DNA of 32,000 nt from Candidatus Saccharimonadota bacterium. GTDB lineage: Archaea > Nanobdellota > Nanobdellia > Pacearchaeales > GW2011-AR1. Made by a program: the position numbers and the translations under genes. The stretch is taken from positions 270,001 to 302,000 of the forward strand of contig JBAZYG010000001.1 in NCBI GenBank assembly GCA_041659445.1. Direction: 5' to 3'. The notes under the pieces are model-generated. The model did no database searches. It was given only the letters and a program-made list of their open reading frames with translations, and had not been told where the DNA came from. This document shows, in pieces, positions 9,013 to 24,811 of the stretch (position 1 is the first letter of the stretch; each line of letters opens with the position of its first letter).

Positions 9013-9039
9013 ACTTTAAAATTATCAATATTAAATTTG

Positions 9040-10655: not shown

Positions 10656-10656
10656 A

Positions 10657-11858: not shown

Positions 11859-11859
11859 A

Positions 11860-14778
11860 ATGTATGAAATACCGCAACAATTAGAATATAAAGAAAAAAT
11901 AGTCTTTGGATTAACTTTTCCACAATTAGCTTATGCTTTTGTATTTTTTCCTTTTGTATTTTCATTTTTGTTTAAAATAAATGCTAATATTTACACAAGA
12001 ATATTTTTAGCATTAATTCCAACACTTTTAGCTGTAGGATTTATGTTTTTTGATTTAAGTCAACATCTTAAAAATTGGTATTTTTGGTTAAAAACTCGAA
12101 AACTTAAAGAAGATAAATTAAAGAAAGTGTTAGAAATTGGAGAAATTAAAGATAATTTAATTCATTATAATAAAAAGAAAATTGCTGTTTTAAGAGTAGA
12201 ATCTTTAAATTTTTCAATAAAATCTCAAGGTGAACAAGAAGCAATAATGTTTTCATTTCAAAAATTCTTAAATTCAATTGACTTTCCAATACAAATTCTA
12301 ATGACTACTGAAACTTTGGATTTAGATATTTATCTTAAAAGTTTAGAGAAGAAATCATTAAATGAAAGAAATAAAGAAATTTTTAATTCTTATAAAGAGC
12401 ATATGCAGGATTTAATCAAACAAAATAGTGCAATGAATAGAAATTTTTATTTAGTAATTCCAGAATCTACAGATTTAAATATTCAAGTTAAACTTTGTGA
12501 AGAAAGGCTTCATAGTCTTAATCTTAAAACTTTTAGATTAAATGATGCTCAATTAAAAAGTATTTTTATTAAGATATTTAATGAAAATTCTAAGAATTTT
12601 CTTCCAAAAGAAATTAATAATTTTCCTGATTTTTTAGAGGTTGATAAAAAATTTCATAAAATAATTTATGCTCATGGATATCCTAGATCTGTTGAAAAAG
12701 GATTCTTAGATAAATTAATTAGTTGCTCTGGAAATTTTGATTTTTCTCTGCATATTATTCCTCAACCAATTGAAAAAACAATGATTTTATTAAATAGAGA
12801 GTTAAAAAAACAAAGAGCAGATCTTTATGCATCTAAACTAAAAAATCAATTTAATCCAAGTCTTGAAATAAAATATAAAGATACTAAAAATATTCTTGAA
12901 GATTTACAAAAAGGAAATGAAAAGCTGTTTAATATGGGTTTTTACATTAATTGTAGAGCAGATAGTTTAGATGAACTTAGATTATTAGTTAGAAAGATTG
13001 AATCAGAATTAAATTCTCTTTTAATTATTCCAAAGCAACCTAATTTTCAAATGATTCAAGGATTTAAATCATGCTTGCCTTTAGCTAAAGATTTTTTAAA
13101 AGTAACTAGAAATATAACAACCTCTGCTTTGTCTGCATTTTTTCCTTTTACTTCTTCTTTTTTTAAATTTGATGAAACAGGCATTTGGTTAGGATTAAAT
13201 AAAAACAATATTCCAATAATTAGAGATATTTTTAAATTATCAAATTCAAATGGAATTTGCTTAGCAAGTTCTGGAGCTGGAAAATCGTATATGGCTAAAT
13301 TGTTCATTACAAGGCATTTGTTAAACAATACAAAAGTTATGATTATTGATCCTCAAAGTGAATATAAAAATATAGTTTCAAAGTTTAATGGTCAAAGAAT
13401 TAATTTATCAAGAACTTCTGAAACAATGATTAATCCTCTTGATTTAATGGGGCATGATTATTCTGAAAAAAGGCTTTCTTTAATGGATTTAATGCCTGTA
13501 ATGTTAGGGCAATTAACAGAACCTCAAAAATCTTTTATTGATCAAGCTTTAACAGAAGCTTATGAAAGAAAAGGAATCTATATGAATGATAGGGCAAGTT
13601 GGGCAAATGAGCCCCCAATTTTGGGAGATGTCTTAAAAATCCTAGAAAAGATAGAGAAAAAAGCAATTAGCCTAGAAAAAACCACAATAAGGAGTTTAAT
13701 AAATCGTTTAAGATTATATGTTGATGGAGTTTTTTCTTTTTTAAACAGACATACAAATATTGATTTTAAAAATAATTTTGTATGCTTTGATATTGGAAAT
13801 ATGCCTAAACAAGTTAAGCCTACAATTATGTTTCTTGTTTTAGATTATGTTTATATGAAAATGAAAAGAGATCTTGAGAGAAAATTGCTGGTTATTGACG
13901 AAGCATGGACTTTACTTTCAAGAGCGGAAGAAGCATCTTATATTTTTGAAATTGTTAAGACTTGTAGAAAATTTAATATGGGGTTATTTTTAATTAATCA
14001 AGAAGTTGAAGGAATGCTAAATTCAGAAGCAGGAAGATCTGCTTTAGCAAATTCTTCATATACCATTTTGTTAAGGCAAAAACCTGCTGTAATTGAAAGT
14101 GTTCAAAAAGTATTTCATTTAAGTAATGTTGAAAGAATTGCTCTTTTAACTGCAGGAGTTGGAGAAGGAATTCTTTTAATGGAAGATGAGCATTCTGAAT
14201 TAAAAATAATTGCTTCAAAAGAAGAGCATAAGCAAATTACTACAAATGCTGACGAATTACTTGAAGCAGAATATGAAGAAAATTCGAAAAGTCAAAAGGT
14301 AAATATTAATGTTGATGAATTTCAGAGAGTTCATAAATCTAAAGATTTAACAAAAGAAGATAAAAAGTATTTATTAAAAAAAGGATTTAAAGAAGAATCT
14401 TTCAAAAGTCTTTCTTTAAATAAAAATGAAAATTATTTTGTTAAACCTAGATTTAATGAAACTTCTAAACATTTATTTGTGGTTTATGATATTAAAAATT
14501 ATTTTGAGAAAAAAGGGATTTCAGTAGAACTTTATGCAACAAAAAAACCAGATATTGTTTTTAATATTAAAAATAAAAAATTTGCAATTGAAGTTGAAAC
14601 TGGATCAATGTTAAATCAAAAGAAATTTTTTAAAGAAAAATTAAATTTACTAAATAAGAATTATGATAAATGGTTTTTTGTTGTAACAGACAGAAATAAA
14701 ACTAAATCTTATAAAAAATATGGAGAGTCAGTAGATTTAAGATATTTGAAACAGAGACTTTCTAAAATCCGTCGATAA
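11860..14778 (+). CDS. VirB4/TrbE-family conjugation ATPase with N-terminal VirB3/PrgI-like membrane segment and C-terminal PD-(D/E)xK-like domain
   Basis: 972 aa.
- N-terminus: KEKIVFGLTFPQLAY plus two TM helices, which is PrgI/VirB3-like.
- Walker A: GICLASSGAGKSYMAKL.
- Other ATPase-core segments: VMIIDPQSEY and GLFLINQ.
- Walker B: LLVIDEAWTLL.
- C-terminal ~120 aa: KKPDIVFNIKNKKFAIEVETGS. Confidence 0.85.
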   Translation: MYEIPQQLEYKEKIVFGLTFPQLAYAFVFFPFVFSFLFKINANIYTRIFLALIPTLLAVGFMFFDLSQHLKNWYFWLKTRKLKEDKLKKVLEIGEIKDNLIHYNKKKIAVLRVESLNFSIKSQGEQEAIMFSFQKFLNSIDFPIQILMTTETLDLDIYLKSLEKKSLNERNKEIFNSYKEHMQDLIKQNSAMNRNFYLVIPESTDLNIQVKLCEERLHSLNLKTFRLNDAQLKSIFIKIFNENSKNFLPKEINNFPDFLEVDKKFHKIIYAHGYPRSVEKGFLDKLISCSGNFDFSLHIIPQPIEKTMILLNRELKKQRADLYASKLKNQFNPSLEIKYKDTKNILEDLQKGNEKLFNMGFYINCRADSLDELRLLVRKIESELNSLLIIPKQPNFQMIQGFKSCLPLAKDFLKVTRNITTSALSAFFPFTSSFFKFDETGIWLGLNKNNIPIIRDIFKLSNSNGICLASSGAGKSYMAKLFITRHLLNNTKVMIIDPQSEYKNIVSKFNGQRINLSRTSETMINPLDLMGHDYSEKRLSLMDLMPVMLGQLTEPQKSFIDQALTEAYERKGIYMNDRASWANEPPILGDVLKILEKIEKKAISLEKTTIRSLINRLRLYVDGVFSFLNRHTNIDFKNNFVCFDIGNMPKQVKPTIMFLVLDYVYMKMKRDLERKLLVIDEAWTLLSRAEEASYIFEIVKTCRKFNMGLFLINQEVEGMLNSEAGRSALANSSYTILLRQKPAVIESVQKVFHLSNVERIALLTAGVGEGILLMEDEHSELKIIASKEEHKQITTNADELLEAEYEENSKSQKVNINVDEFQRVHKSKDLTKEDKKYLLKKGFKEESFKSLSLNKNENYFVKPRFNETSKHLFVVYDIKNYFEKKGISVELYATKKPDIVFNIKNKKFAIEVETGSMLNQKKFFKEKLNLLNKNYDKWFFVVTDRNKTKSYKKYGESVDLRYLKQRLSKIRR

Positions 14779-14831: not shown

Positions 14832-16283
14832 CTAAATAATCTTTTCTAATTTTTCAAATTCAGATAATAATTCTTTAACTTCTTTCTTTGCTTCTTCAAT
14901 AATAACTTTGCTCTGTCTGTGATCAACTTCTTTTTCCTTTTCTTTTTTATATCTGTTAATTGAAAGATCCCAGTCTTTTTCTTTAATTTCTTCAATTGGA
15001 ACAAAGAAATGTTTCTCAAATCTGCTTTTATTGTCTTCCTTATTTCTTTTTTCAAATCTTTCTAAAATATCTGGAATATCATTTTTATCTGGTTGTTCGG
15101 TTCTCTTATCATCTAAACTAAATCCGTCCGCTTCCATATTGTAAAACCAGACTTTTTCTGTTGGCTCTCCTTTTGTAAAGTAAAGAACTGCAGTTGATAC
15201 TCCTGCGTAGGGTTTGAATATTCCAGAAGGCATAGAAATAATAGCATCAAGACGGCACTTTTCTAATAAAATTTTTTTAATTGATTTGTGAGCATTTGAA
15301 TTACCAAATAAAACACCTTCTGGAACTATTACTGTACATCTTCCCCCAACTGAAAGAGAATTATACATAAGTTCTAAGAAAAGTAATTCTGTTTTACTTG
15401 TACTTATTGTAAGTTCATCTGATTTCTCACTTTCATTTATAGAGCCTTTGAAAGGAGGATTTGCTAAAACTAAATCGTAAACCCCATTTTCATTATATCT
15501 TTTTGATAGAGTATCTTCTCCAGTAATCTTAGGGTTTGTTATTCCATGCATCATCAAATTCATTACTGCAATTCTAACCATAGTTCTGTCAATATCATAC
15601 CCATAAAGAGACTCTTCATCAAGAATTTTCTTTTTTTCTGGAGTTAATGTGCTTACATTATTTTTTTGATTTGTTTTTAAAATATATTCGTAAGCATTTA
15701 CTAAGAACCCTGCTGTTCCACAAGCTGGATCTAAAATTCTATCTCCAAATTCTGGTCTTGCCAAATCAACCATCATCTTAATTATATGTCTTGGGGTTCG
15801 AAATTGTCCATTTTTTCCTGCAGTTTGAAGTTCAGAAAGAAGATATTCATAAATGTCTCCTTGAGTATCCTGGTTTTGTTCTTTAATATGTAAGTCATTA
15901 ATTATATTGACTGCTTCAATTAAAAGAGAGGCTGTTGGAAGAGAAAAACTTGCATCCTTCATATATCTGGCATAAGAGGAGTTTTCTTCACCCAAATTTC
16001 TCATAAAAGGAAAGACAACATCTCGAACATGAGCTAAAATTTTATCAGAGGAATATTCGCTCCAAACAGACCATTTACAATTTTCATGACCTTCAAAAAT
16101 AGATTTGTATTTAGTCCCCTTAAGGACTGCGTTTTGTTCTTCTAAAACATCCTTGTCCTCTAATTTTCTCATAAAAATTAAATAAGATATTTGTTCAATT
16201 GCTTGAAGAGGATTACTAATTCCTCCGCTCCAAAATTTATCCCATAACTTTCTTATTTTTGATTTAAATTCTGCATGTAACAT
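14832..16283 (-). CDS. hsdM: type I restriction-modification system methyltransferase subunit
   Basis: 483 aa. HsdM_N-like N-terminus (LWDKFWSGGISNPLQAIEQISYLIFMRKLED), motif I ILDPACGTAGFL and motif IV LANPPFKGS. Confidence 0.92.
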   Translation of the reverse strand: MLHAEFKSKIRKLWDKFWSGGISNPLQAIEQISYLIFMRKLEDKDVLEEQNAVLKGTKYKSIFEGHENCKWSVWSEYSSDKILAHVRDVVFPFMRNLGEENSSYARYMKDASFSLPTASLLIEAVNIINDLHIKEQNQDTQGDIYEYLLSELQTAGKNGQFRTPRHIIKMMVDLARPEFGDRILDPACGTAGFLVNAYEYILKTNQKNNVSTLTPEKKKILDEESLYGYDIDRTMVRIAVMNLMMHGITNPKITGEDTLSKRYNENGVYDLVLANPPFKGSINESEKSDELTISTSKTELLFLELMYNSLSVGGRCTVIVPEGVLFGNSNAHKSIKKILLEKCRLDAIISMPSGIFKPYAGVSTAVLYFTKGEPTEKVWFYNMEADGFSLDDKRTEQPDKNDIPDILERFEKRNKEDNKSRFEKHFFVPIEEIKEKDWDLSINRYKKEKEKEVDHRQSKVIIEEAKKEVKELLSEFEKLEKII

Positions 16284-16285
16284 AT

Positions 16286-17371
16286 TTATTGTTTTTCGTT
16301 ATCCAAGGGTTTATTTTTAATATTATTAGCTATTAAATCTACTTGTTTTTGAGAAAGATAATGAGATTTATAAAACAGCTTATGGCTATCGGTCATCAAA
16401 TTTAATTTATAATGATCTTCTGGGTGAATTAATCCAAAAATATGACCTATCTCATGAGCCAAATTTCTTCCTGTTAAATCCCTAAAAGTTAAATTAAGAT
16501 AAGATATTTTGTCATGCCTAAATATTGCGAAAGAGTGTCCACACAAACTACCTCTACCTGCGTTCTCACCACCACTAACAAAGATTATACTTTCATTAGG
16601 ACTATTATTTGTTATCCTATTTATTAAATCCATATACCCTTCTTCCCAGCATTCTGTTTCATTGTTTCCTTTGGAATATAAGATTGCTCTCTCTTTGTCA
16701 CTTAAATTAATATTCACATAATAAGTTTTATTGATTAAAACAGAGATATTATATTTGTTCCAAATTTTATCTGCTTCAAAGACATATTTATCTAAATCCT
16801 GCTTATTTATTTCATTATTTATAACATAAAAATTAAATTTTGTATCAAGATGATCTAAATTTATTCCCTTAGGTTCAGAAGGTAATGAGATATAAATGAC
16901 TAAACCAATCATAACTAGGGTTACTAAAACTAAAAATAATGAAATTGTATTAATATTTTCTTTTGGACTTTTTTGCAACATAAATAATATAAAAATAATT
17001 AGTGAACTAAATAAAACTCCTAATATTGTGATCAGGGGGTGTAATAATTTAAATGAATTTAACAATAATGAAATAAGTGAGAAGATTATTATAGAAAGGA
17101 AAAACAAATAACAGCTTACCAACAATTTTGGATCAAATTTTCTAAAGTTTATTTTTTTAAAAAATCCAATAAAATTCTTATTCCAATTATATCTTTTACC
17201 TGCCCAAACAAAAAAAGTATAAATCAAGACTAAAAACAATCCTAATAAAAAGATATATAACGCTGAACGCAAACCACTTTTAATTTCCAATCCATAATAT
17301 AAAACTATTCCCGCGATTATTCCTATAATCAAATTATCCCAATATTTTTCAAATATTTCTGTGAACTTCAT
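16286..17371 (-). CDS. membrane-anchored metzincin-type zinc metalloprotease (putative)
   Basis: 361 aa. There are about 5 N-terminal TM helices and then a soluble domain ending in LAHEIGHIFGLIHPEDHYKLNLM. That is HExxHxxGxxH plus a possible Met-turn. The gene is wedged between hsdS (1-nt gap) and hsdM (2-nt gap). Confidence 0.6.
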   Translation of the reverse strand: MKFTEIFEKYWDNLIIGIIAGIVLYYGLEIKSGLRSALYIFLLGLFLVLIYTFFVWAGKRYNWNKNFIGFFKKINFRKFDPKLLVSCYLFFLSIIIFSLISLLLNSFKLLHPLITILGVLFSSLIIFILFMLQKSPKENINTISLFLVLVTLVMIGLVIYISLPSEPKGINLDHLDTKFNFYVINNEINKQDLDKYVFEADKIWNKYNISVLINKTYYVNINLSDKERAILYSKGNNETECWEEGYMDLINRITNNSPNESIIFVSGGENAGRGSLCGHSFAIFRHDKISYLNLTFRDLTGRNLAHEIGHIFGLIHPEDHYKLNLMTDSHKLFYKSHYLSQKQVDLIANNIKNKPLDNEKQ

Positions 17372-17372
17372 T

Positions 17373-18524
17373 TTACAAATCCCCCTTAAATCCTTTACTC
17401 ACAAGAGAATTAAATAATTCTTCGGAGTTTTGTTTAGTTTTGTTTAGTTTTTTTTTCATTTTTTCAATTTGTTCAACTATCTTTGCAAATTTTTGCTGAA
17501 GGAAGATAGGCGGAATAGGGATCTCAAAATTTCCTAAATCTCGTGGACTTAGTCTTGGGAGATTTGCACCAACACATAAAGAATTTGCTCGGTTTATATA
17601 AGTCTCTCGTCTTAGTAAATGAGCAATATAATATTTATTTGATTTACCTTTTTCTGGTCTGAGAGGAATTATATCTGTACTACAAACACCATTAAAATTA
17701 GGCAAAGCAATTTTATTTAGATAGGGTCTCAGTTTACCATAAAGGATACATTCATCATCAAAAAGAAATTTTGTACTCTTTAATTTTTGAGCTTGTGCAT
17801 CCAACTTTTCCAATATTCTTCCAGTTTGAGATTCTATATGTTCTAAACCAAGATAAAAATAATCTTTATTTATTTTTTCTGGAGAGATAATTTTTCTGAA
17901 TAGTGGACAGACTTCTTTTAATTTTATAATCTTAAATTTATTTTTTTCTTTCAAAAACATTTCATAAAAAAGAGTATTTAAGTATTCATCAAATAAGTCC
18001 TCAATTTTTTCTCCTCTCTGATTCAATTCCCAAGAATCATCTAAAATATTAACAACTCTTTCTTGTTCTTTTATGTCTAATTTTCCATTAGAGAATGGAA
18101 CAAAAATTTTTCTTTTTTGATATACAGAAAGATAATATCGTTTGTGAGTTGAAAAATTCAATTGGATACCTTTCATCATTAGAAAAACAAATTTTATATT
18201 TACATCTTTAGATTTTGGTGTTAATAATTTCATTGCACTTGATTTTACTTTAAATTTAAAATCAACAAATTTAGTGTCTGTGGTGAAATCATCAAAAAGA
18301 ATTACTGGAGGTTTTTCATAAATTCCATTTTTCTCTTCAGTATATCCTAAAATAAATGATTTGTTTGCAGTTAAAACTGGAACTGAAATTTTTGTTTTCT
18401 CTTTAAGTATTTCGCTTTGAACAATATAGTCTCCTGGTTGCTCATAATCCAAAAGTTCTCCTATTTCAATTTCTTTCCATTCAATTTGGTTAGTTTGTGT
18501 TTGTTTCATTTTAATTTTTTTCAA
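17373..18524 (-). CDS. hsdS: type I restriction-modification system specificity subunit
   Basis: 383 aa. It has two target-recognition halves, each followed by a helical conserved region (…EERVVNILDDSWELNQRGEKIEDLFDEYLNTLFYEMF… and …QQKFAKIVEQIEKMKKKLNKTKQNSEELFNSLVSKGF). The gene sits within the hsd operon. Confidence 0.85.
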   Translation of the reverse strand: MKKIKMKQTQTNQIEWKEIEIGELLDYEQPGDYIVQSEILKEKTKISVPVLTANKSFILGYTEEKNGIYEKPPVILFDDFTTDTKFVDFKFKVKSSAMKLLTPKSKDVNIKFVFLMMKGIQLNFSTHKRYYLSVYQKRKIFVPFSNGKLDIKEQERVVNILDDSWELNQRGEKIEDLFDEYLNTLFYEMFLKEKNKFKIIKLKEVCPLFRKIISPEKINKDYFYLGLEHIESQTGRILEKLDAQAQKLKSTKFLFDDECILYGKLRPYLNKIALPNFNGVCSTDIIPLRPEKGKSNKYYIAHLLRRETYINRANSLCVGANLPRLSPRDLGNFEIPIPPIFLQQKFAKIVEQIEKMKKKLNKTKQNSEELFNSLVSKGFKGDL

Positions 18525-20688
18525 ATATGATCTCCTTTAATTTTTTAACTTCTTCTTCATTAGGCTGATTTACTGCATAGGGGTTTAATATAATGTCTCC
18601 AACAAGGATGAATTTAATTTTTCCTTGAGGATCTTTTATTAATTGTCTTTTAAAATAAATTAATCCAGAAACTACTTTTTTATTTTTAACCAAAGGGTTA
18701 GGTTGTCTTATCCATTCCCCTTCAGTAGTTTCCCCAGTTTTGTTATTTCTATAAAATTGATAAGCTAATGTTCCAAAAAAACTATCTGCAATCATATATT
18801 TGTCTATAACCGAAGAACTTATATCTACAACAATAAAAAATAAATCTTTTCTCGTTCCTTTTTCCATTTCTTCAAAGGTCTTTGTAGAATAAAATTGACC
18901 TGATTTATTACTAAGAATATTATTGAGTTTATTTTTTATCGTAACTGCTCCATTATCTAAATGTAAACTTCTATCTCCATCTGAATTTTTAACCTCAAAG
19001 AATATATCCTTTTTATTTAATTTAATAGATAAATCCGCATAATTAATTTTATTTGGGATTTGTGGCTCTAAAATCATTTCAAAATATTGTTTTTGGGGCA
19101 AGAATCTATTTGAAAAAATAACCTCGCTAAAATTATCCCAAAATCTTTCTTCATATTCAAGAGAATCGAGTAATGTTTTGGTGTTATCATCATTATTTCT
19201 TTTATTTAAAATATCTTTTGAATTTTTTAAAAAATCTTCAAATTCATTCAGATAAGATTCTTTTAATTCTTTATCTCTTTTCCAATTACCCAACCAAAAT
19301 AAAGGACTATATCTTTTTTTGTCATATAACTCTTTTAATTTATGTTTAATTATCTTGTCTAATTCTGGAAATTCATTTAAAGACTTATTAATTTCATCAA
19401 AATTCAGCTCGGCTATTACATGATTTCGATATATTAATTGTTCTAATAATTCATCAGTGTAATCAATTAATTTGTAAAAATTCTTATTTCCTACAAAGTC
19501 ATTAAAAGAAGATTTATTTTCATTGATAAAATCTTTCGTTTCAGCTATACTTTCTATTTTTTGAGCTAAAGGTAAAAATAAATCAAATGCCTTATTATTA
19601 TCTGAATCTTTGTAAATTATTCCAATAATTTTACTAACAAGTTCGTAATAGAGTTTAGGATCCTTGTCAAAAATCTTTTTTTCCATTAATTCTCTTGAAG
19701 CAGATTCAACATTTTGAGAAGCCATTTTTTCAAAAATCCTTGGAAAGTTTTCAGTTTTTACTTTTTCAAAATTATCTAAAAAGTAATCTATAAACTTCTC
19801 ATTCTTTTTTACCAACTCTTGAATAGCCCAATCAAAATGCTGAACTTTGAATTCTAAATCTTTATTTATCCAATAGATAAATAGCTTGGATATTTTTTCA
19901 ATTTCGTCAGGGTAATCTATTAACGGATACATCATATCTCTAACAATCTCCCCATCAGAATCTTTACATAATTCTATTAATTCTAAAATATGTTCTTTTT
20001 CTAATTTAATTCCCACAGTCATCCAAAACAGTAATCTATTTACAGAGGAAATCTTTCGCTTAGCAAGTAATTTTATTTTATTATAGAAATAATATTTTTC
20101 ATTTTTATATAAGCATAAATAAAGCCCCATAAGCTCTGTCAATATTCTTTCATCAGAGAATAATTCTGTTTTATCTAAATAACTTTTAATTTCGAGGGGC
20201 AAAATTTCTTTTTCATATCTAACTAAAATTGCTTTTAATATTGTATTTCTCATTGGATAATCTGAATCTTTTTTAATTAATTCTTTTAAAGAGGTTTCAT
20301 CATGGAAAGCGTATCCTCCTAAAATTCTTCCAGAGATTATTTTAAGATCTATGTTGTCTGATTTATCCCGTATTAGATCATATAATCTTATTGCTATTTC
20401 TTGCTTTTCTTTTCCCACTTTTATTAACATCTCAAAAAAAGGTCCACTTGCCATGTCTCCTTTTATTTTTAAAAAGACTTTTTCTAAATAACTCAAATAT
20501 TTTTCATCGTCTGAAACCAAATCAAACAATACCTCAACAGATAACTGGAAATAATTCCAAATAGATTCTTGATTTATCTCATCTAATAAGACATATTTTT
20601 CTTCTTTAGTTATATCATCCTTTATCTTAAAATATTCTTCTTTTTGTTTATCAAATTCAAATCTAAATTGTTTAAATTTTTCAATCAT
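18511..20688 (-). CDS. large uncharacterised protein: ~540-aa all-helical repeat region plus C-terminal PD-(D/E)xK-like domain
   Basis: 725 aa with no Walker motifs. The C-terminal part has YADLSIKLNKKDIFFEVKN, with D552 and E565-x-K567 at classic PD-(D/E)xK spacing, followed by alternating strand/helix-like segments. It overlaps hsdS by 14 nt and the upstream gene by 8 nt. Confidence 0.5.
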   Translation of the reverse strand: MIEKFKQFRFEFDKQKEEYFKIKDDITKEEKYVLLDEINQESIWNYFQLSVEVLFDLVSDDEKYLSYLEKVFLKIKGDMASGPFFEMLIKVGKEKQEIAIRLYDLIRDKSDNIDLKIISGRILGGYAFHDETSLKELIKKDSDYPMRNTILKAILVRYEKEILPLEIKSYLDKTELFSDERILTELMGLYLCLYKNEKYYFYNKIKLLAKRKISSVNRLLFWMTVGIKLEKEHILELIELCKDSDGEIVRDMMYPLIDYPDEIEKISKLFIYWINKDLEFKVQHFDWAIQELVKKNEKFIDYFLDNFEKVKTENFPRIFEKMASQNVESASRELMEKKIFDKDPKLYYELVSKIIGIIYKDSDNNKAFDLFLPLAQKIESIAETKDFINENKSSFNDFVGNKNFYKLIDYTDELLEQLIYRNHVIAELNFDEINKSLNEFPELDKIIKHKLKELYDKKRYSPLFWLGNWKRDKELKESYLNEFEDFLKNSKDILNKRNNDDNTKTLLDSLEYEERFWDNFSEVIFSNRFLPQKQYFEMILEPQIPNKINYADLSIKLNKKDIFFEVKNSDGDRSLHLDNGAVTIKNKLNNILSNKSGQFYSTKTFEEMEKGTRKDLFFIVVDISSSVIDKYMIADSFFGTLAYQFYRNNKTGETTEGEWIRQPNPLVKNKKVVSGLIYFKRQLIKDPQGKIKFILVGDIILNPYAVNQPNEEEVKKLKEIIFEKN

Positions 20689-21349
20689 CTTCTTTTACCT
20701 CCTCAGTATAGCTATATTTTCTTTCAGGTTTCGCTGAAATCTTTTTTATTTTTTCTTTTGAAATAATCCAAATATCAGAACCATGAACTAATGGGTGACC
20801 TACGCAATATAAATTATCCACTGCAATATTCCCTAAACACCTGTTGCAAAAATCATAAAATCTTTCTCCCATATCCGAAAATTTAAGATTGTTTATATTA
20901 GTTAATTCTTCTTTTATTTCTCCAAGACGAGTATTCTCATTAAATGTTCCAATAAAATTTTTACAATTAACCGAATTTTTTATCTCCTTTGTTTCAAATT
21001 TATTATTTTTGTCTTTCCTTATCTGAAATCCTTTTTGAGAAGATTTGTCTATAACTAAAAATTGTTCATCTGTAATCGTGAGAAAAATATTTTTTAGTTT
21101 AATCTCAAGATATTTTTTAAAATCCTCAAAGTTGAGATATTGTTTTGCATCATCAATTATATCGCTTAAAATTTTTTCATCTCCAGAACCAACAAAAAAT
21201 AAATTATGATTAATTCCTTTTATTTTTTCAATACTATCTGAAAATACTGAGATATCGCTTTGAGATTCTGCTTTAAATTTAGAAACAGCTTTTTTGTCTG
21301 CAACTATAACCCAAGCGTCTTTTATTGGAAATGTAAATGCGAGAGTCAT
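20681..21349 (-). CDS. proteasome-beta/HslV-like Ntn-hydrolase candidate (Thr directly after Met)
   Basis: 222 aa. MTLAFTFPIKDAWVIVADKKAV...IEKIKGINHNLFFVGSGDEKI parallels the proteasome-beta/HslV N-terminus: T1, Asp/Glu17 and K-I-x-x-I...[AS]-G-x-x-x-D. Asp falls at mature position 17. This is a motif-level resemblance only. Confidence 0.4.
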   Translation of the reverse strand: MTLAFTFPIKDAWVIVADKKAVSKFKAESQSDISVFSDSIEKIKGINHNLFFVGSGDEKILSDIIDDAKQYLNFEDFKKYLEIKLKNIFLTITDEQFLVIDKSSQKGFQIRKDKNNKFETKEIKNSVNCKNFIGTFNENTRLGEIKEELTNINNLKFSDMGERFYDFCNRCLGNIAVDNLYCVGHPLVHGSDIWIISKEKIKKISAKPERKYSYTEEVKEDD

Positions 21350-21813
21350 TTTTTCTTCCTCTTTGATTTAGATAATAAATTGAAATTATGATTAATCATT
21401 AAATCCAAGAATATAAAATAAATTATCATAAAAATATGAACCCCAAATAAAATCTTTGAATAATTGTATGATATAACTGTTGAATAAATAAATTCTACAA
21501 TAAAAATAATACTTATAACTGCAAAAAATTTCCATGAATAAATATAATCAAATTCTTTTCCAGCATCATTTATTTGGTCTTTCCAATTTCTTAACAAAGG
21601 TTTGTTTTTATCTTTCTGTTTAAGTCTATTTTTCATCATTACCTTTATCTTTCCTTCTAAATCTGTTTTGTAAACTTCCATAATAGCAAGAATTGCTAAT
21701 CCTGCAAAGAATAACCACATAGGACTTTTTGTCAAATAAAAAGTAATCAACGGCAAAATAAATAATGCCTGATGAATCTTTTTCTTATCTGTGAAAAAAT
21801 CAATTATTTTCAT
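21346..21813 (-). CDS. small integral membrane protein (~4 TM), hypothetical
   Basis: 155 aa. Two hydrophobic hairpins are separated by a basic loop (MMKNRLKQKDKNKPLLRNWKDQ). ATGA overlaps occur at both ends. Confidence 0.5.
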   Translation of the reverse strand: MKIIDFFTDKKKIHQALFILPLITFYLTKSPMWLFFAGLAILAIMEVYKTDLEGKIKVMMKNRLKQKDKNKPLLRNWKDQINDAGKEFDYIYSWKFFAVISIIFIVEFIYSTVISYNYSKILFGVHIFMIIYFIFLDLMINHNFNLLSKSKRKKK

Positions 21814-21983
21814 TCTTCCTCCCCCAATCCAGTTTCTTTTCTGATCATCTCTCGGAGTTTTGTATTTATCTTTTTGCCTTCCTGGTCACAAAGTTTTTTG
21901 AAAAAAAGGAATTCACTCTTATACAATCTTGTAGAAACAATTTTCCTCTCTTCCCCGCTTAAATCATGATTTTTTAAAACCAT
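21810..21983 (-). CDS. ribbon-helix-helix (CopG-like) regulator, first gene of the cassette-hsdS-hsdM operon
   Basis: Below the track cut-off (57 aa): MVLKNHDLSGEERKIVSTRLYKSEFLFFKKLCDQEGKKINTKLREMIRKETGLGEEE. It has a strand-helix-helix layout. Its TGA overlaps the ATG of the next gene (ATGA). Confidence 0.5.
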   Translation of the reverse strand: MVLKNHDLSGEERKIVSTRLYKSEFLFFKKLCDQEGKKINTKLREMIRKETGLGEEE

Positions 21984-22004
21984 GAAAAAGATAGAACTAA
22001 AGAC

Positions 22005-22031
22005 TATTTAAAGATTTAGGTGTATACACCT
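22005..22031 (-). promoter_or_regulatory. promoter/operator: TATA-like box (TTTAAATA on the minus strand, 22005-22012) plus perfect 14-bp palindrome AGGTGTATACACCT (22018-22031)
   Basis: The palindrome is self-complementary by inspection. It ends 34 nt upstream of the RHH ATG (21983). The TATA-like box is centred about 25 nt upstream of that ATG, which suggests a leaderless transcript. Confidence 0.4.
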
Positions 22032-22060
22032 TTTTGTTCATGAATTGTATAATTTGTGAA

Positions 22061-24811
22061 CTATTTCCACTTTAAGCTATTACACTTTTGGACTAATTTC
22101 TCTAATTGTTCTTTACTAAACGCATCTAAAGGTCTTCCTTCTGCTAAGGGATGTTCTGCAAAATTCTTTAATTCAACATGCTTAGCTCTCACAAAAACCT
22201 GTTCCAATAATCTTAAAAATTTTAATTGCTGAGAATTATAATGCTCATTTTTATCCATCACAAATTTATCAAATTCCCATTTAATCATCTCTTGGGGGTC
22301 AGGCAATCCCTTGACTTCTAATAAATCTCTTAAAAATAAAATAAAGTCTTTACTTTGTTGAATATTGTCAATTGTCAACATAGGATTTAATTCTCTTAGT
22401 TTCTTTTCAATAACTAAAAGTTCTTTTGATGTAACCCCTTCACCATCTTTAATTTTTTGCATTAAAGAATTATTACTTAAGAAAGTCTTGAAATCTTCAT
22501 CTTCTTTAAGTTCCATTGCTTCTTTCTCAACTTTCAGAACTACATCGGGAGCATTAACTCTTATCATTCCTTTTCTTTCCTCTTCATAAAAAATCATTAA
22601 AGGAGAAATTTCTCTAACTAAAAAATCAACATCTTCAAAAGTAATATCCTCCCAGAAAGGTTCTTTTTGAATTCTTATAAGATCGTCTCTTTTTTGTTTT
22701 ATTGCATCTAAATTTTTATCCCAAATTGCTTCTGCTCTTGTAACAACAAATTCTTCAATCTTAGCAATTTTGTTTTTATTTCCTGTTTTAATGCAATCAA
22801 AGAGTTTAACACATTGAGAGATAAAACCATAAACTTTTGAATTCTCCGACGGAGTATAAATTAAAAGAGGGGCTATTTCATTTCTTAATTCTTCAATATG
22901 TTCCTTTAAATCAAATTTGGAAGAGATGACTTTTTTAATTATGTTTTTCTTTTCAATAACCAAAGGAGATTCAATATCAATTTCCTTAATTGTGTCTATG
23001 ATTTGTTTCTCTACTACTTTTCTTTCTTTTTCACTTAGATTCTTTTCTAAAGTATCAACTTGTTCTAAAAAGATTCTTGTCTTAGCATCTGTTCCAGAGG
23101 ATTTTTGCTTTATAGCGTTCAATTTATGAACCAATATATTTGAGTAATCTCCAAACTTAAAGTCTAATATTAAAAAATCTTCTTTTATGTGCTGTCCATC
23201 TTTATCTGTTGGCAACCATTCTTTATTTTCACAAGCAGATAAACTTCTTGTTCCTCTTCCTAACATTTGCCAGAATCTGATAGAAGACATTACGGGTTTA
23301 ACAAAAACTAAGTTCATTACTTCAGGAACATCAACCCCAGTATCTAAAACTCCAACAGATAAAGCAATTCTTGGGCTATCTCTTTTTTCAAATCTCTTAA
23401 CTTCATCCATATAACGAGATTTGTCCGAAGTAATAACTTTTACATCCTTTGCCAAAGAAGGATAAAGTCTTTGGAATAATTTTTCCAAAGATTCTGCATG
23501 TTTTATACTTGCACAGAAGAATATACTTTTGCAGGGTCTATTATCATCTGATTTATAACACCGATCTACAAATTCTCGGATAATTAATTCATTAGTCTTT
23601 TCATCTGTAAAAAATCTTTCAAATTTAGAACCTGGTGTTTGAAATTTCTCTGGATCTTCTTCTTGTTGCTTTAATGCTTGTTGTAATTCTTTATTCAATT
23701 TTTTCCCTTCAATTCCTAATGAAAGAACACTTGTCTCAATAATTTCTGCTACATAAGGAGCTAATATCTTATCTCTTACTGCTGAATCATAGTCATACTT
23801 GAATGTGGGTTTTTCATTATTACAATTAAATAAATCAAAAGTATTTCTTGTTTCCTCTGAAGAAGGTGTTGCAGTTAGTCCAACTTTTAACGCATCAAAA
23901 TATTTGAAAATATCATTATTTTTATCATAGTAAGAACGGTGTGCTTCATCAAAGATAATTAAGTCAAATGCTCCTGGACCAAATTTTTCATAAAACTTTC
24001 CTCTTGGTTTTTGAGGAGACATTAAAGTTTGAATTGTGGAAACATAAAATCTTGCACTGCTTGAATAACCTTCCTCATTTAATTCACAAACCGGTGTTTC
24101 TGGAAAAAATTTCTTAAATCCTTTTTCTTTAGCTTGATTCCCTAAAGAAATTCTATCAACAACAAATAAAACTTTTTGAGCATATTCTGATTTTATTAAA
24201 CAATCTATTAAAGCCATTGCAACTCTTGTTTTTCCTGTTCCTGTAGCCATATTAATTAAAGCCTCTCGATGTCCCTTAGAAAAGTGTTCTAATACTATCT
24301 TAACTGCTTCAACACATGTTTTTCTATTTAAAATAGTAGAACTTACCTTAACATTTACAGGATCCTTTCTTTTTTTCATCAAACTGATTATCCTATGTAA
24401 ATCTTTTTGTGAAAATGGTAAGAGAACTTTTCTTCTCCTATCTAAGTCATCAACATAATACCAATTTGTTCCATTAGTTAAGAAAATAGGAATTTTGATT
24501 TTAATTTGTTTTTCAATATCTTCTCTATAAGTCCTTGCCTGAATTTCTCCTTTTTCAACGCTCACTGAAGTTTTTTTTGCTTCTACAATTGCGAGAGGGC
24601 TTCTATCTTCATCTAATAATAAATAGTCTATAAATCGGTCAACATTTTTTTCTATTCCAACCTCAAGACCTACATATTCTTTAGTTAAAAAATTAGATTT
24701 AACTGGATTAATCTCTTCCTTGACATAATGTCCTTTAACTTTCCATCCTGTTCTTTCTAAAATTGGATCTATCAATTCTTTTCTCGTTTCTTTCTCAGAG
24801 AGATTTGTCAT
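22061..24811 (-). CDS. hsdR: type I restriction enzyme endonuclease/translocase subunit
   Basis: 916 aa.
- N-terminal HSDR_N nuclease: RKELIDPILERTGW and DYLLLD...AIVEAKK.
- SF2 motif I: NMATGTGKTRVA.
- SF2 motif II: LIIFDEAHRS.
- Later helicase motifs: GLTATP and QMLGRGTR.
- C-terminal EcoEI_R_C-like helical tail. Confidence 0.92.
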   Translation of the reverse strand: MTNLSEKETRKELIDPILERTGWKVKGHYVKEEINPVKSNFLTKEYVGLEVGIEKNVDRFIDYLLLDEDRSPLAIVEAKKTSVSVEKGEIQARTYREDIEKQIKIKIPIFLTNGTNWYYVDDLDRRRKVLLPFSQKDLHRIISLMKKRKDPVNVKVSSTILNRKTCVEAVKIVLEHFSKGHREALINMATGTGKTRVAMALIDCLIKSEYAQKVLFVVDRISLGNQAKEKGFKKFFPETPVCELNEEGYSSSARFYVSTIQTLMSPQKPRGKFYEKFGPGAFDLIIFDEAHRSYYDKNNDIFKYFDALKVGLTATPSSEETRNTFDLFNCNNEKPTFKYDYDSAVRDKILAPYVAEIIETSVLSLGIEGKKLNKELQQALKQQEEDPEKFQTPGSKFERFFTDEKTNELIIREFVDRCYKSDDNRPCKSIFFCASIKHAESLEKLFQRLYPSLAKDVKVITSDKSRYMDEVKRFEKRDSPRIALSVGVLDTGVDVPEVMNLVFVKPVMSSIRFWQMLGRGTRSLSACENKEWLPTDKDGQHIKEDFLILDFKFGDYSNILVHKLNAIKQKSSGTDAKTRIFLEQVDTLEKNLSEKERKVVEKQIIDTIKEIDIESPLVIEKKNIIKKVISSKFDLKEHIEELRNEIAPLLIYTPSENSKVYGFISQCVKLFDCIKTGNKNKIAKIEEFVVTRAEAIWDKNLDAIKQKRDDLIRIQKEPFWEDITFEDVDFLVREISPLMIFYEEERKGMIRVNAPDVVLKVEKEAMELKEDEDFKTFLSNNSLMQKIKDGEGVTSKELLVIEKKLRELNPMLTIDNIQQSKDFILFLRDLLEVKGLPDPQEMIKWEFDKFVMDKNEHYNSQQLKFLRLLEQVFVRAKHVELKNFAEHPLAEGRPLDAFSKEQLEKLVQKCNSLKWK

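What the first reader, a model, noticed from the sequence alone, without database searches (positions are those of the whole stretch)
14832..24811. Type I R-M operon interrupted by a translationally coupled cassette of uncharacterised genes: candidate new defence module
On the minus strand the gene order is:
1. hsdR (24811-22061)
2. a 77-nt promoter gap
3. RHH (57 aa)
4. 4-TM protein (155 aa)
5. proteasome-like Thr1 protein (222 aa)
6. 725-aa helical-repeat protein with a PD-(D/E)xK-like C-terminus
7. hsdS
8. membrane metzincin (361 aa)
9. hsdM

The junctions are ATGA, ATGA, 8-nt and 14-nt overlaps, then 1-nt and 2-nt gaps. All seven genes after hsdR therefore look like one translationally coupled unit, and hsdS/hsdM cannot be expressed without the inserted genes.

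There is precedent for defence genes embedded in type I hsd loci: PrrC in the E. coli prr locus. There is also precedent for proteases inside methylation-based systems: BrxL in BREX. I do not recognise this particular combination as any described system. It comprises a membrane protein, a putative threonine peptidase, a nuclease-like giant protein and a membrane metalloprotease.
Basis: partly seen in the sequence, partly recalled or inferred. Interest (0 to 1): 0.85.

Follow-up and report, generated by a model that had tools for sequence, protein, structure and literature searches.

The report
Olokun-like defence pair inside archaeal R-M
A DNA-restriction operon of a tiny DPANN archaeon carries a conserved, tightly coupled pair of uncharacterised genes: a proteasome-like threonine peptidase and a large helical-repeat protein distantly related to the bacterial Olokun anti-phage system. 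The pair is probably a second, untested immune module, while the other two "inserted" genes are just variable cargo.

Summary
All nine minus-strand ORFs, the 77-nt gap and the junctions are as described, and hsdR, hsdS and hsdM are a genuine type I (EcoAI-like) R-M system in a Candidatus Pacearchaeota contig.

Across 31 distinct related loci, only two inserted genes travel together: the 222-aa protein and the 725-aa protein.
- The 222-aa protein has a proteasome-β fold, with invariant Thr1 and near-invariant Asp17 and Lys33.
- The 725-aa protein is an ARM/HEAT solenoid followed by an α/β domain.
- The 222-aa gene lies directly upstream in 26 of 26 evaluable loci, translationally coupled through a conserved SD-plus-ATG overlap.
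- The pair docks co-directionally into type I, type III and type IIG R-M loci (22 of 26 informative loci). It also occurs alone in integrase/defence islands, for example in Nitrosotalea.
- The 4-TM gene is confined to the window and one near-identical locus group. The metzincin gene is unique to the window. Both are slot cargo. The RHH plus a palindromic operator/TATA form the conserved promoter of the S/M operon.

The 725-aa family is broad in archaea (274 clusters). Fifteen of 32 diverse members hit PADLOC's OloA model (Olokun), to E = 1.5e-14. The C-terminal domain is endonuclease-like on weak evidence only, and its canonical Lys is not conserved.

Best reading: an archaeal, fused Olokun-like module with an added proteasome-like subunit. 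Function is untested.

The parts
22061..24811 (-). hsdR, type I restriction subunit (916 aa, EcoAI/type IB-like)
   Evidence: ResIII 1.2e-36, HSDR_N, Helicase_C and EcoEI_R_C; PADLOC REase_I 3.9e-91; NCBIfam EcoAI/FtnUII family 3.9e-70, below its cut-off. It is 86.5% nt identical to the AR13 locus.
22005..22030 (-). Conserved promoter/operator of the downstream operon: the perfect palindrome GGTGTATACACC (22019-22030) and the archaeal TATA-like TTTAAATA (22005-22012), about 21 nt before the RHH ATG (near-leaderless)
   Evidence: Read from the sequence. Both elements are conserved in 7 diverged loci while the spacer to the ATG is not (alignment A6). Function as an operator or TATA box is inferred.
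21810..21983 (-). 57-aa putative RHH-type regulator, first gene of the S/M operon
   Evidence: 96% identical in AR13. Found directly after hsdR and before the Ntn gene in L009, L021, L022, L031 and, fused to a longer ORF, L024. No significant HMM or PDB hit, so the RHH fold is inferred from the sequence pattern only.
21346..21813 (-). 155-aa 4-TM protein; variable cargo, not part of the conserved module
   Evidence: No family hits. A homologue appears only in the near-identical L019/L020 group. The AR13 slot holds unrelated 170-aa and 56-aa genes.
20681..21349 (-). 222-aa proteasome-beta/HslV-like Ntn hydrolase (Thr1 after Met removal), without a propeptide
   Evidence: AF2 pLDDT 72, pTM 0.72. 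Foldseek PDB gives 489 hits at E<=1e-3 and all top hits are 20S subunits. M1-T2 is invariant; D18, K42 and G54/G56 are near-invariant. No Pfam Proteasome hit. It lies directly upstream of the 725-aa gene in 26 of 26 evaluable loci.
20681..20705 (-). Translational-coupling junction: SD-like GAGGT inside the last Ntn codons, then ATGATTGA (ATG of the 725-aa gene overlapping the Ntn stop; 8-nt overlap)
   Evidence: The junction sequences of 29 loci were aligned by eye. GAGGT lies 8-10 nt upstream of the ATG in most, and the ATG overlaps or abuts the stop codon.
19099..20688 (-). 725-aa protein, residues 1 to about 530: ARM/HEAT (adaptin-like) alpha-solenoid, OloA-related
   Evidence: AF2 pLDDT 88.7, all helical. 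Best PDB folds are importin-alpha and other solenoids. Fifteen of 32 diverse family members hit PADLOC OloA, best E = 1.5e-14, over this region. The window protein itself does not hit.
18511..19098 (-). 725-aa protein, residues about 531-725: conserved alpha/beta domain, candidate restriction-endonuclease-like (NERD/DUF2726-like) fold
   Evidence: Secondary-structure order is alpha-beta-beta-beta-alpha-beta, with E522 invariant and D552 and E/D565 near-invariant. Position 567 is K here but I/T/Y/V in most of the family. There are local Foldseek matches to DUF2726 proteins (prob 0.99 and 0.80) and to an 'Endonuclease', and a hit to HEC-02B (a NERD nuclease) at E = 0.008. There is no PDB, Pfam or OloB sequence hit.
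17373..18524 (-). hsdS, specificity subunit (383 aa with the TTG start; the alternative ATG is at 18509)
   Evidence: Methylase_S 3e-12 in two stretches; Specificity_I 3.7e-45. Only the conserved central and C-terminal parts align to AR13, as expected for variable TRDs.
16286..17371 (-). 361-aa multi-TM metzincin-like Zn protease; variable cargo unique to this locus
   Evidence: HEIGHIFGLIH fits HExxHxxGxxH. Weak hits: Reprolysin_3/4 and Peptidase_M10 at E 0.03-0.09, fragilysin/serralysin/archaemetzincin, myroilysin 0.007. No homologue in any of the other 44 DPANN-type loci screened. The AR13 slot holds 132-aa, 92-aa and 470-aa SLFN/AlbA_2-like genes instead.
14832..16283 (-). hsdM, type I methyltransferase (483 aa)
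   Evidence: N6_Mtase 1.3e-65 and HsdM_N 5e-12; MTase_I 1.1e-171.

Best explanation
The locus is a functional-looking type I R-M system of a Pacearchaeota (DPANN) archaeon. Its hsdS/hsdM operon is driven by a conserved, probably RHH-autoregulated archaeal promoter, and it acts as a landing pad for cargo genes.

The one conserved cargo is a two-gene module:
(a) a proteasome-beta-like N-terminal-threonine hydrolase, and
(b) a 725-aa protein made of an OloA-like (adaptin/ARM) alpha-solenoid fused to a restriction-endonuclease-like alpha/beta domain.

I propose that this pair is an autonomous second-line antiviral module, related to the bacterial Olokun system (OloA solenoid plus OloB nuclease) but single-chain and with an extra protease subunit. 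The two proteins are made in fixed ratio by translational coupling and probably form a complex. The solenoid would be the scaffold or sensor, and the C-terminal domain would bind or cut invader DNA. The Thr1 peptidase would then either switch the complex on or off by cleavage, or degrade a captured viral protein.

Shown:
- the gene structure, the folds and the conserved residues;
- the synteny and the defence-island association;
- the remote OloA homology of the family.

Inferred:
- complex formation;
- nuclease and peptidase activity;
- antiviral function;
- co-transcription with hsdS/hsdM.

The 4-TM protein and the membrane metzincin are separate, locus-specific cargo of unknown role.
For: - Synteny: the Ntn gene is directly upstream of the 725-aa gene in 26 of 26 evaluable distinct loci. 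This also holds in Nitrosotalea (sequence) and in L053. The SD-like GAGGT and the ATG/stop overlap are conserved.
- Context: the pair is co-directional and adjacent to R-M genes in 22 of 26 informative loci. It sits in different positions and in type I, type III and type IIG/Eco57I-like systems.
- Neighbours elsewhere include Shedu SduA_C, PDDEXK_1, DUF2779, SLFN/AlbA_2 and NYN; HEPN_AbiV; Thoeris TIR, McrBC and a MazG-like gene; Mrr; and BREX-5 PglZ. Integrases are frequent.
- Ntn fold and Thr1/Asp17/Lys33 pattern.
- Solenoid. OloA hits in 15 of 32 family members, to E = 1.5e-14.
- Olokun biochemistry (adaptin-like OloA plus PD-(D/E)xK OloB in a 2:2 complex that cleaves phage DNA): bioRxiv 10.1101/2025.07.10.664194.
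- Endonuclease-like C-terminus.
- Embedding as a predictor of defence function: Payne et al. 2024.
- Mosaic backbone and cargo structure.
Against: - There is no experimental evidence of any kind.
- The window protein itself does not hit OloA. The link runs through family members found by the profile search.
- No OloB similarity was found for the C-terminal domain.
- The canonical PD-(D/E)xK lysine is not conserved across the family: position 567 is I12 T8 Y4 K3 V3. Nuclease activity is therefore doubtful, or the active site is non-canonical.
- Profile searches against PDB, Pfam and the neighbouring Cas4-like nuclease found nothing.
- Olokun has no protease, so the Ntn role has no precedent.
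- One Ntn-plus-solenoid pair (L053) lies among housekeeping genes and lacks the C-terminal domain.
- Alpha-solenoid HMM matches can be inflated by repeat composition.
Confidence: 0.55

Rival explanations
1. R-M accessory for restriction control. The pair is not an independent defence system. It would be a dedicated proteolytic regulator of the neighbouring restriction enzyme, comparable to ClpXP-dependent restriction alleviation of type IA/IB HsdR in E. coli. The solenoid/DNA-binding protein would recruit stalled or unwanted R subunits, and the Thr1 peptidase would degrade them. This would protect unmodified host DNA after horizontal transfer or DNA damage.
For: - The pair is co-directional and embedded in R-M operons of several types in 22 of 26 informative loci.
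- It shares an operon with hsdS/hsdM under one conserved promoter.
- The HsdR is EcoAI/type IB-like. From established knowledge (Makovets, Doronina and Murray, 1999), that family is subject to ClpXP-dependent alleviation in E. coli.
- Archaea lack ClpXP (general knowledge).
- The active-site triad of the peptidase is conserved.
Against: - Stand-alone pairs occur without any R-M gene in reach: L012, L018, L030 and L034, Nitrosotalea and L053.
- Solo 700-aa homologues sit in non-R-M defence islands.
- The family is homologous to OloA of an autonomous defence system.
- The pair is also associated with single-chain type IIG enzymes, which have no separate R subunit.
Confidence: 0.15
2. Counter-anti-restriction module. 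The solenoid would capture viral anti-restriction proteins (for example DNA mimics), and the peptidase would destroy them. This would restore R-M activity rather than attack viral DNA.
For: - The pair is adjacent to mechanistically different R-M types.
- Ntn alleles diverge fast or are swapped relative to the backbone. The window and AR13 show about 25% Ntn identity against 74% for the 725-aa protein and 90% for HsdR and HsdM.
- The solenoid has variable stretches.
- The non-conserved catalytic Lys argues against a nuclease effector.
Against: - There is no direct evidence, and no anti-restriction protein of DPANN viruses is known.
- Stand-alone and solo family members argue against it.
- Acidic residues are conserved in the C-terminal domain: E522 in 32 of 32 sequences, plus D552, E/D565 and D622. 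This suggests the domain does something catalytic or metal-dependent.
Confidence: 0.12
3. Non-defence cargo. The pair would be an accessory proteostasis or mobile-element maintenance function that merely hitch-hikes in R-M loci, because those loci tolerate insertions ('genomic sink').
For: - DPANN R-M loci are stuffed with many unrelated small genes.
- One pair lies among housekeeping genes.
- Integrases, T4SS genes and plasmids occur nearby.
- Fuchs et al. 2021 found no functional context for 22 new proteasome-homologue families.
Against: - The pairing and coupling are strictly conserved over deep divergence.
- The pair recurs next to known defence genes in independent lineages.
- The family is homologous to OloA.
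- Payne et al. report that most genes embedded in such systems are defence-related, and 7 of the 9 candidates they tested were validated.
Confidence: 0.13

Closest known systems
Olokun anti-phage system (OloA + OloB; Millman et al. 2022, from memory; biochemistry in bioRxiv 10.1101/2025.07.10.664194)
   Same: - Both have an adaptin/HEAT-like alpha-solenoid protein. The PADLOC OloA model hits 15 of 32 diverse members of the 725-aa family, to E = 1.5e-14.
- In both, the solenoid is combined with a restriction-endonuclease-type domain.
- Neither has an NTPase motif.
- Both are found in defence islands.
   Different: - Here the solenoid and the nuclease-like domain are one polypeptide.
- No OloB sequence similarity was found.
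- The canonical Lys is not conserved.
- A translationally coupled proteasome-like Thr1 hydrolase is added in the DPANN and Nitrosotalea branches, and Olokun has no counterpart to it.
- The family is archaeal and is usually embedded in R-M operons.
- The window protein itself is too diverged to hit OloA.
Defence genes embedded in type I R-M, BREX, DISARM and Hma loci ('guilt-by-embedding', Payne et al. 2024; PrrC in EcoprrI; rlo genes of Campylobacter hsd loci, from memory)
   Same: The genes are co-directional and nested between hsd genes. The cargo varies from locus to locus, and the backbone is conserved.
   Different: - The protein families differ from PrrC, which is an ABC ATPase plus an anticodon nuclease.
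- Neither the window proteins nor the Ntn family hit any of the 5027 PADLOC models, including the PDC and HEC candidates.
- The pair also docks into type III and type IIG systems.
Proteasome-like Ntn hydrolases without an AAA+ partner (HslV, Anbu, BPH, connectase, and the 22 families of Fuchs, Alva and Lupas 2021)
   Same: The fold is the same, and so is the Thr1/Asp17/Lys33 constellation. As in HslV, there is no propeptide, so Thr is exposed by Met removal.
   Different: - There is no Pfam Proteasome hit.
- The obligate partner is a solenoid protein, not an unfoldase.
- There is a clear genomic context, whereas Fuchs et al. report none for their families.
- Whether this family equals one of theirs (for example ACC, WPH or PMI) could not be tested.
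Single-chain solenoid-sensor/enzyme-effector defence proteins (for example DSR2: SIR2 plus a HEAT-like domain; from memory)
   Same: A large alpha-solenoid is fused to a small enzymatic domain in one protein, located in defence islands. Solo 700-aa family members fit this pattern.
   Different: The effector domain is different, the domain order is reversed, and no homology has been shown. This is an analogy only.

Membership tests
Type I restriction-modification system | HsdR with an N-terminal nuclease domain and SF2 helicase/translocase domains | tested here: met
   HSDR_N 2.3e-9, ResIII 1.2e-36, Helicase_C and EcoEI_R_C; REase_I 3.9e-91
Type I restriction-modification system | HsdM (N6-adenine MTase with the HsdM_N domain) and HsdS with two target-recognition domains | tested here: met
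   N6_Mtase 1.3e-65 and HsdM_N 5e-12; Methylase_S in two stretches; MTase_I 1.1e-171 and Specificity_I 3.7e-45
Proteasome-like Ntn hydrolase family (proteasome beta / HslV) | Proteasome-subunit alpha-beta-beta-alpha sandwich fold | tested here: met
   AF2 model with pTM 0.72. Foldseek against PDB gives 489 hits at E<=1e-3, and the top 50 are all 20S subunits with TM about 0.5-0.6.
Proteasome-like Ntn hydrolase family (proteasome beta / HslV) | N-terminal Thr nucleophile plus Asp17 and Lys33 | tested here: met
   M1-T2 is invariant in 16 of 16 sequences, and D18 and K42 are present in at least 90%. The same pattern is seen in Nitrosotalea and L053.
Proteasome-like Ntn hydrolase family (proteasome beta / HslV) | Sequence-profile membership (Pfam Proteasome, PF00227) | tested here: not met
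   No Pfam hit at E<=0.1, and no PDB hit with a family profile.
Proteasome-like Ntn hydrolase family (proteasome beta / HslV) | Ring/barrel assembly and peptidase activity | not testable with these tools
   No multimer prediction or biochemistry was available.
Olokun (OloA/OloB) | OloA adaptin-like solenoid protein | tested here: inconclusive
   Fifteen of 32 diverse family members hit PADLOC OloA, best E = 1.5e-14. The window protein has no hit at E<=0.1. It is linked only through the family profile search.
Olokun (OloA/OloB) | A separate OloB gene (helical N-terminal domain plus PD-(D/E)xK nuclease) next to oloA | tested here: not met
   There is no OloB hit for the full-length proteins or for 20 C-terminal domains at E<=10. 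The nuclease-like domain is fused, and the adjacent coupled gene is an Ntn hydrolase.
Olokun (OloA/OloB) | Anti-phage activity | not testable with these tools
   This needs a virus challenge experiment.
PD-(D/E)xK (restriction-endonuclease-like) nucleases | Alpha-beta-beta-beta-alpha-beta core fold | tested here: inconclusive
   The secondary-structure order fits. There are local Foldseek matches to DUF2726 proteins (prob 0.99 and 0.80) and to an 'Endonuclease' (prob 0.77), but with E values of 0.08-0.5. HEC-02B, a NERD nuclease, hits at E = 0.008. The whole-model search is dominated by the solenoid, and the domain could not be searched alone.
PD-(D/E)xK (restriction-endonuclease-like) nucleases | Conserved catalytic D...(D/E)xK | tested here: not met
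   D552 is 27 D plus 3 E, and E565 is 28 E plus 4 D, so both are conserved. Position 567 is I12 T8 Y4 K3 V3 across 32 diverse members. It is K in the window protein, and it varies even within the close clade.
Metzincin zinc metalloproteases (361-aa protein) | HExxHxxGxxH zinc site; HMM above threshold | tested here: inconclusive
   The motif HEIGHIFGLIH is present in the sequence. All HMM and PDB hits are sub-threshold and confined to the motif: E 0.03-0.09 and myroilysin 0.007.
PrrC-type embedded anticodon nuclease | ABC-ATPase N-domain plus a C-terminal anticodon nuclease, between hsd genes | tested here: not met
   No PADLOC, Pfam or NCBIfam hit of that kind for any inserted gene.
Ribbon-helix-helix regulators (57-aa protein) | RHH fold / family HMM | tested here: inconclusive
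   No Pfam hit. The NCBIfam hits are E = 0.045-0.086 and far below cut-off, and there is no PDB hit. Its position behind a conserved palindrome and TATA box supports a regulator role.

The most novel reading that the evidence does not exclude
A proteasome-family threonine peptidase is an integral, stoichiometric subunit of an archaeal solenoid-nuclease immune complex (an Olokun relative). In that complex, regulated proteolysis either arms the nuclease or destroys captured viral proteins. This would be the first proteasome homologue with an antiviral role in prokaryotes. It would also be the first functional context for the many orphan proteasome-like families.
Probability: 0.3. Interest if true: 0.8.

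Novelty: new variant of a known kind. Interest (0 to 1): 0.6.

Why it matters
- Archaeal immunity beyond CRISPR and R-M is poorly charted. The 2026 NAR survey (PMC12988326) finds nearly a third of archaeal genomes with nothing else detected.
- This pair is a concrete multi-gene candidate that current tools miss, and relatives occur across DPANN, Thaumarchaeota and haloarchaea.
- It links Olokun, whose mechanism is still unclear, to a fused archaeal form. The fusion tells which parts must work together.
- It gives a proteasome-like family a strict partner and a context, which the 2021 catalogue of proteasome homologues lacked (PMC8665760).
- Homologues in cultured organisms make it testable. 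Nitrosotalea devaniterrae has the full pair. Halorubrum ezzemoulense and other haloarchaea have the solo protein.
- It also shows DPANN type I R-M operons acting as modular cargo racks under one conserved promoter.

Tried and rejected
- Pfam, NCBIfam, PADLOC and PHROGs scans of the window's five inserted proteins found nothing significant.
- Family-profile searches of the Ntn family, the 725-aa family and its C-terminal domain against PDB sequences gave no meaningful hit.
- Pfam on 13 C-terminal domains gave only noise; PDDEXK_9 reached E = 0.053 in a single member.
- hhalign of the C-terminal domain against the neighbouring Cas4-like PDDEXK_1 proteins gave a probability of 0.4%. A simple duplication or relationship is rejected.
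- OloB was sought in the C-terminal domains at E<=10 and was absent.
- Whole-model Foldseek of the 725-aa protein was dominated by solenoid matches.
- A viral-contig scan with the wide alignment failed because it had no conserved stretch to search with.
- I searched for an att repeat of the tRNA-Asp/integrase element inside the window and found none.
- I considered the D-x-S-x-S-E-I-D motif after strand 616-622 as a vWA MIDAS site. I rejected it because the preceding secondary structure does not fit a vWA fold (reasoning, with no direct test).
- I rejected the one-module reading of all the inserted genes because.
- Literature searches for a proteasome homologue in a defence island returned nothing.

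Full report
**1. Observation.**

| Gene | Coordinates | Length |
|---|---|---|
| hsdR | 22061-24811 | 916 aa |
| 57-aa gene | 21810-21983 | 57 aa |
| 155-aa gene | 21346-21813 | 155 aa |
| 222-aa gene | 20681-21349 | 222 aa |
| 725-aa gene | 18511-20688 | 725 aa |
| hsdS | 17373-18524 | 383 aa |
| 361-aa gene | 16286-17371 | 361 aa |
| hsdM | 14832-16283 | 483 aa |

- Junctions, in order: a 77-nt gap after hsdR, two ATGA overlaps, an 8-nt overlap, a 14-nt overlap, then 1-nt and 2-nt gaps. If hsdS starts at the ATG at 18509 rather than the TTG, the 14-nt overlap becomes a 1-nt gap.
- HMMs confirm a complete type I system. HsdR has HSDR_N, ResIII and EcoEI_R_C, and its best NCBIfam match is EcoAI-like. 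HsdS has two Methylase_S stretches. HsdM has HsdM_N and N6_Mtase.
- None of the five inserted proteins has a significant hit in Pfam, NCBIfam, PADLOC or PHROGs.
- The window is about 25% GC. It comes from a 486-kb contig of a Candidatus Pacearchaeota (DPANN) archaeon.

**2. What the inserted proteins are.**

The 222-aa protein:
- It begins M-T. In an alignment of 16 relatives spanning 20-86% identity, M1 and T2 are invariant. D18, K42 and a GxG motif are near-invariant. After Met removal this is the Thr1/Asp17/Lys33 pattern of proteasome beta subunits and HslV.
- Its AlphaFold model (pTM 0.72) retrieves 489 PDB chains at E<=1e-3, and all the top ones are 20S proteasome subunits.

The 725-aa protein:
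- It models with high confidence (pLDDT 88.7). Residues 1 to about 530 are an all-helical solenoid whose best fold matches are importin-alpha and other ARM/HEAT proteins. An alpha/beta domain follows.

The 361-aa protein:
- It has a multi-TM N-terminus and an exact HExxHxxGxxH motif. Only sub-threshold metzincin hits support the assignment.

The 57-aa protein:
- The RHH label has no tool support.

**3. Comparative genomics separates a conserved pair from variable cargo.**

- Homologues of the 725-aa protein (38 clusters) and of the 222-aa protein (13 clusters) were traced to their contigs. Two collection scans added more. This gave 45 loci, of which 31 are distinct at 95% identity. All are from Pace-, Woese- or Nanoarchaeota.
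- A seed-based phmmer survey and de-duplication show the Ntn gene directly upstream of the 725-aa gene in all 26 evaluable loci. Twenty-five were found by phmmer. One, L041, was found by eye; it begins MTTIFS...GDR.
- The junction carries a conserved SD-like GAGGT 8-10 nt before an ATG that overlaps or abuts the Ntn stop, typically as GATGATTGA. This also explains the conserved 'YEVKxDD' tail of the Ntn protein.
- R-M genes are adjacent and co-directional in 22 of 26 loci with informative flanks, but the R-M type and the docking position vary:
  - between hsdR and hsdS (window, L001, L007, L021, L022, L024, L031);
  - between hsdM and hsdS (L013);
  - between hsdS and hsdR of a different type I family (L008);
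  - after type III Mod/Res (L003, L014);
  - after MmeI/Eco57I-like type IIG enzymes (L005, L016, L033, L036, L040, L045).
- Four loci carry the pair with no R-M gene in reach (L012, L018, L030, L034).
- By contrast, the 4-TM gene occurs only in the window and in the near-identical L019/L020 group. The metzincin occurs nowhere else.
- A blastn comparison with the AR13 locus shows the mosaic directly.

| Segment | Window vs AR13 (nt identity) |
|---|---|
| hsdR | 86.5% |
| promoter plus RHH | 88% |
| 725-aa gene | 80% |
| conserved parts of hsdS | 77-80% |
| hsdM | 84.5% |

  - The slots between these segments hold unrelated genes. AR13 has DUF3800; 170-aa and 56-aa genes plus a different Ntn allele; 180-aa, 49-aa and 162-aa genes; and 132-aa, 92-aa and SLFN-like 470-aa genes.
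  - The window and AR13 Ntn proteins are only about 25% identical, although their partners are 74% identical.

**4. The operon promoter.**

- Upstream of the 57-aa gene lie a perfect 12-bp palindrome (GGTGTATACACC, 22019-22030) and a TTTAAATA box (22005-22012). The box ends about 21 nt before the ATG.
- Both are conserved in seven diverged loci while the spacer is not. This fits an archaeal TATA promoter with a near-leaderless transcript and an operator for the small regulator.
- The RHH, Ntn, 725-aa, hsdS and hsdM genes are therefore plausibly one transcription unit. Co-transcription is inferred, not shown.

**5. Wider family and the Olokun link.**

- An exhaustive profile search found 274 clusters (at 50% identity) at E<=1e-3, and 191 at E<=1e-10. 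Most are full-length proteins of 690-760 aa.
- Named members are all 'hypothetical'. They come from Nitrosotalea devaniterrae and from cultured haloarchaea: Halorubrum ezzemoulense, Halobaculum, Halorientalis, Salarchaeum and Halarchaeum. Three haloarchaeal plasmids also carry a copy.
- Contexts of these remote members:
  - Nitrosotalea keeps the pair: a 230-aa gene beginning (M)TLLIF...SDRKQ...TKC, overlapping a 749-aa gene by 4 nt. It lies in an integrase/HEPN-AbiV island without R-M.
  - Other members are solo, next to Mrr; next to Thoeris TIR, McrBC and a MazG-like gene; near integrases; or beside BREX-5 PglZ.
  - One archaeal contig has an Ntn gene (MTLVIYF...SDKQ...SGSGD) coupled to a 549-aa solenoid-only relative.
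- Scanning these remote members against PADLOC gave the key lead. The OloA model of the Olokun system hits Nitrosotalea (4.7e-14), P0083, P0095 and the Halorubrum plasmid copy. Overall it hits 15 of 32 diverse members, best E = 1.5e-14.
- The window protein is too diverged to hit directly.
- According to bioRxiv 10.1101/2025.07.10.664194:
  - Olokun is a 2:2 complex of the adaptin-like OloA with OloB, which has a helical N-domain and a PD-(D/E)xK nuclease.
  - The complex degrades some phage DNAs but not E. coli DNA in vitro.

**6. The C-terminal domain.**

- Its secondary-structure order (helix 513-526; strands 537-540, 553-557 and 560-568; helix 580-599; strand 616-622) matches the restriction-endonuclease core. 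The placement of E522, D552 and E565-x-K567 fits the same core.
- Across 32 diverse members, E522 is invariant. D552 (27 D plus 3 E), E/D565, D622, N586, R/K587, R661 and N702 are nearly invariant.
- The 'K' position is mostly hydrophobic: I12 T8 Y4 K3 V3.
- Support for the fold is weak but comes from three independent directions:
  - the topology and motif positions;
  - local Foldseek matches to DUF2726 proteins (prob 0.99 and 0.80) and to an 'Endonuclease';
  - an E = 0.008 hit of exactly this segment to HEC-02B, a NERD-type PD-(D/E)xK nuclease.
- Sequence and profile searches against PDB, Pfam, OloB and the neighbouring Cas4-like nuclease are negative.
- I therefore call it endonuclease-like, with catalytic competence uncertain.

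**7. Mechanism.**

- The best-supported reading (confidence about 0.55) is an autonomous, Olokun-related second-line defence module.
  - The solenoid would be the scaffold or sensor.
  - The fused endonuclease-like domain would engage DNA.
  - The translationally coupled Thr1 peptidase would be a regulatory or effector subunit.
  - The whole would be co-expressed with the R-M methylase and specificity genes from one regulated promoter.
- Shown: the anatomy, the folds, the conserved residues, the coupling signals, the synteny, the defence-island association and the family-level OloA homology.
- Inferred: complex formation, the enzymatic activities, the antiviral role and co-transcription.
- Rivals:
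  - a dedicated restriction-alleviation protease for the neighbouring R-M enzyme (0.15);
  - a counter-anti-restriction device (0.12);
  - non-defence hitch-hiking cargo (0.13).
- The stand-alone and solo occurrences and the Olokun homology weigh against the first two rivals. The deep conservation of the coupling and the repeated defence contexts weigh against the third.

**8. Comparison and novelty.**

- Embedding of defence genes in type I R-M, BREX and DISARM loci is a published principle. Payne et al. 2024 report 96.7% same orientation and describe PrrC as almost exclusively embedded. The phenomenon is therefore known.
- The specific pair is absent from PADLOC 2.0, including its PDC and HEC candidates.
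- Literature searches for a proteasome homologue in a defence island found nothing.
- The 2021 catalogue of 22 new proteasome homologues reports no informative genomic context or partner.
- I classify the pair as a new variant of a known kind. It is Olokun-like, but fused, archaeal, R-M-embedded and equipped with a proteasome-like subunit.
- It is not a member of Olokun as defined, because it has no OloB gene.

**9. Verdict.**

  - an R-M backbone with its own regulator;
  - one conserved two-gene candidate system;
  - a 4-TM cargo gene;
  - a metzincin cargo gene.
- Interest is 0.6. It is a well-delimited, testable archaeal defence candidate with an unexpected proteasome-family component and a link to a poorly understood bacterial system. 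It remains purely computational, and one of its two presumed catalytic sites is doubtful.

Noticed in passing
window 7700-14778: A tRNA-Asp (7700-7774) is followed at once by a tyrosine integrase (7858-9012). Next come an orphan N6_N4 DNA methylase (9152-9811, minus strand), a T4SS-pilin-like gene (11037-11858) and a 972-aa PrgI/VirB4/TraG-like ATPase (11860-14778). This is an ICE-like integrated element abutting the R-M locus. No att repeat was found inside the window.
   Followed up: partly
window 24886-25098 (-): A 70-aa ORF lies 74 nt upstream of hsdR and looks RHH/CopG-like by eye (KPLGVRLPKTVEIALEKRV). If so, both R-M transcription units may start with a small regulator. It has no HMM or PDB support.
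   Followed up: partly
window 11860-14778 (+), C-terminal ~170 aa: The VirB4/TraG-like ATPase carries an extra C-terminal region with a PD...ExE/K-like pattern (KPDIVF...AIEVETG). This suggests a fused restriction-endonuclease-like domain. It was seen by eye only.
   Followed up: no
L001 9340-10008 vs window 20681-21349: The Ntn alleles of two loci with 80-88% identical backbones are only about 25% identical. Nucleotide homology resumes about 20 nt before the 725-aa start. This looks like allelic replacement or cassette shuffling of the peptidase gene.
   Followed up: partly
L003, L005, L006, L013, L022 (DUF2779); L014, L016, L033, L035 (220-aa PDDEXK_1, 'SPSSL..CPRCFWL'): A Cas4-like PD-(D/E)xK nuclease recurs next to the pair, mostly in the type III, type IIG and fused M-S contexts. 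It is either a full-length DUF2779 protein or a 220-aa form with four Cys. It may be a third, facultative component.
   Followed up: partly
L053 6449-9650 (also L054): A 233-aa multi-TM protein precedes an Ntn gene and a solenoid-only (549-aa) relative in an archaeal chromosome region with housekeeping genes. This echoes the window's order of TM protein, Ntn and solenoid, although the TM proteins look unrelated by eye (no comparison was run).
   Followed up: partly
L001, L007, L008, L013, L022: DPANN type I loci repeatedly carry SLFN/AlbA_2-like (about 440-470 aa), NYN, DUF3800 and DUF4145-like genes in the same inter-hsd slots. These R-M operons thus act as general cargo racks.
   Followed up: no
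725-aa protein residues 616-630 (window ~18799-18843): A strand ending in D-x-S-x-S-E-I-D (D622 in 30 of 32 sequences, S626 in 23 of 32) resembles a MIDAS-type metal site. Its meaning is unexplained.
   Followed up: no
L050 1958-8001: There is a 6-kb stretch without called genes or long ORFs upstream of the Halobaculum homologue. It may be an rRNA operon. This was not checked.
   Followed up: no
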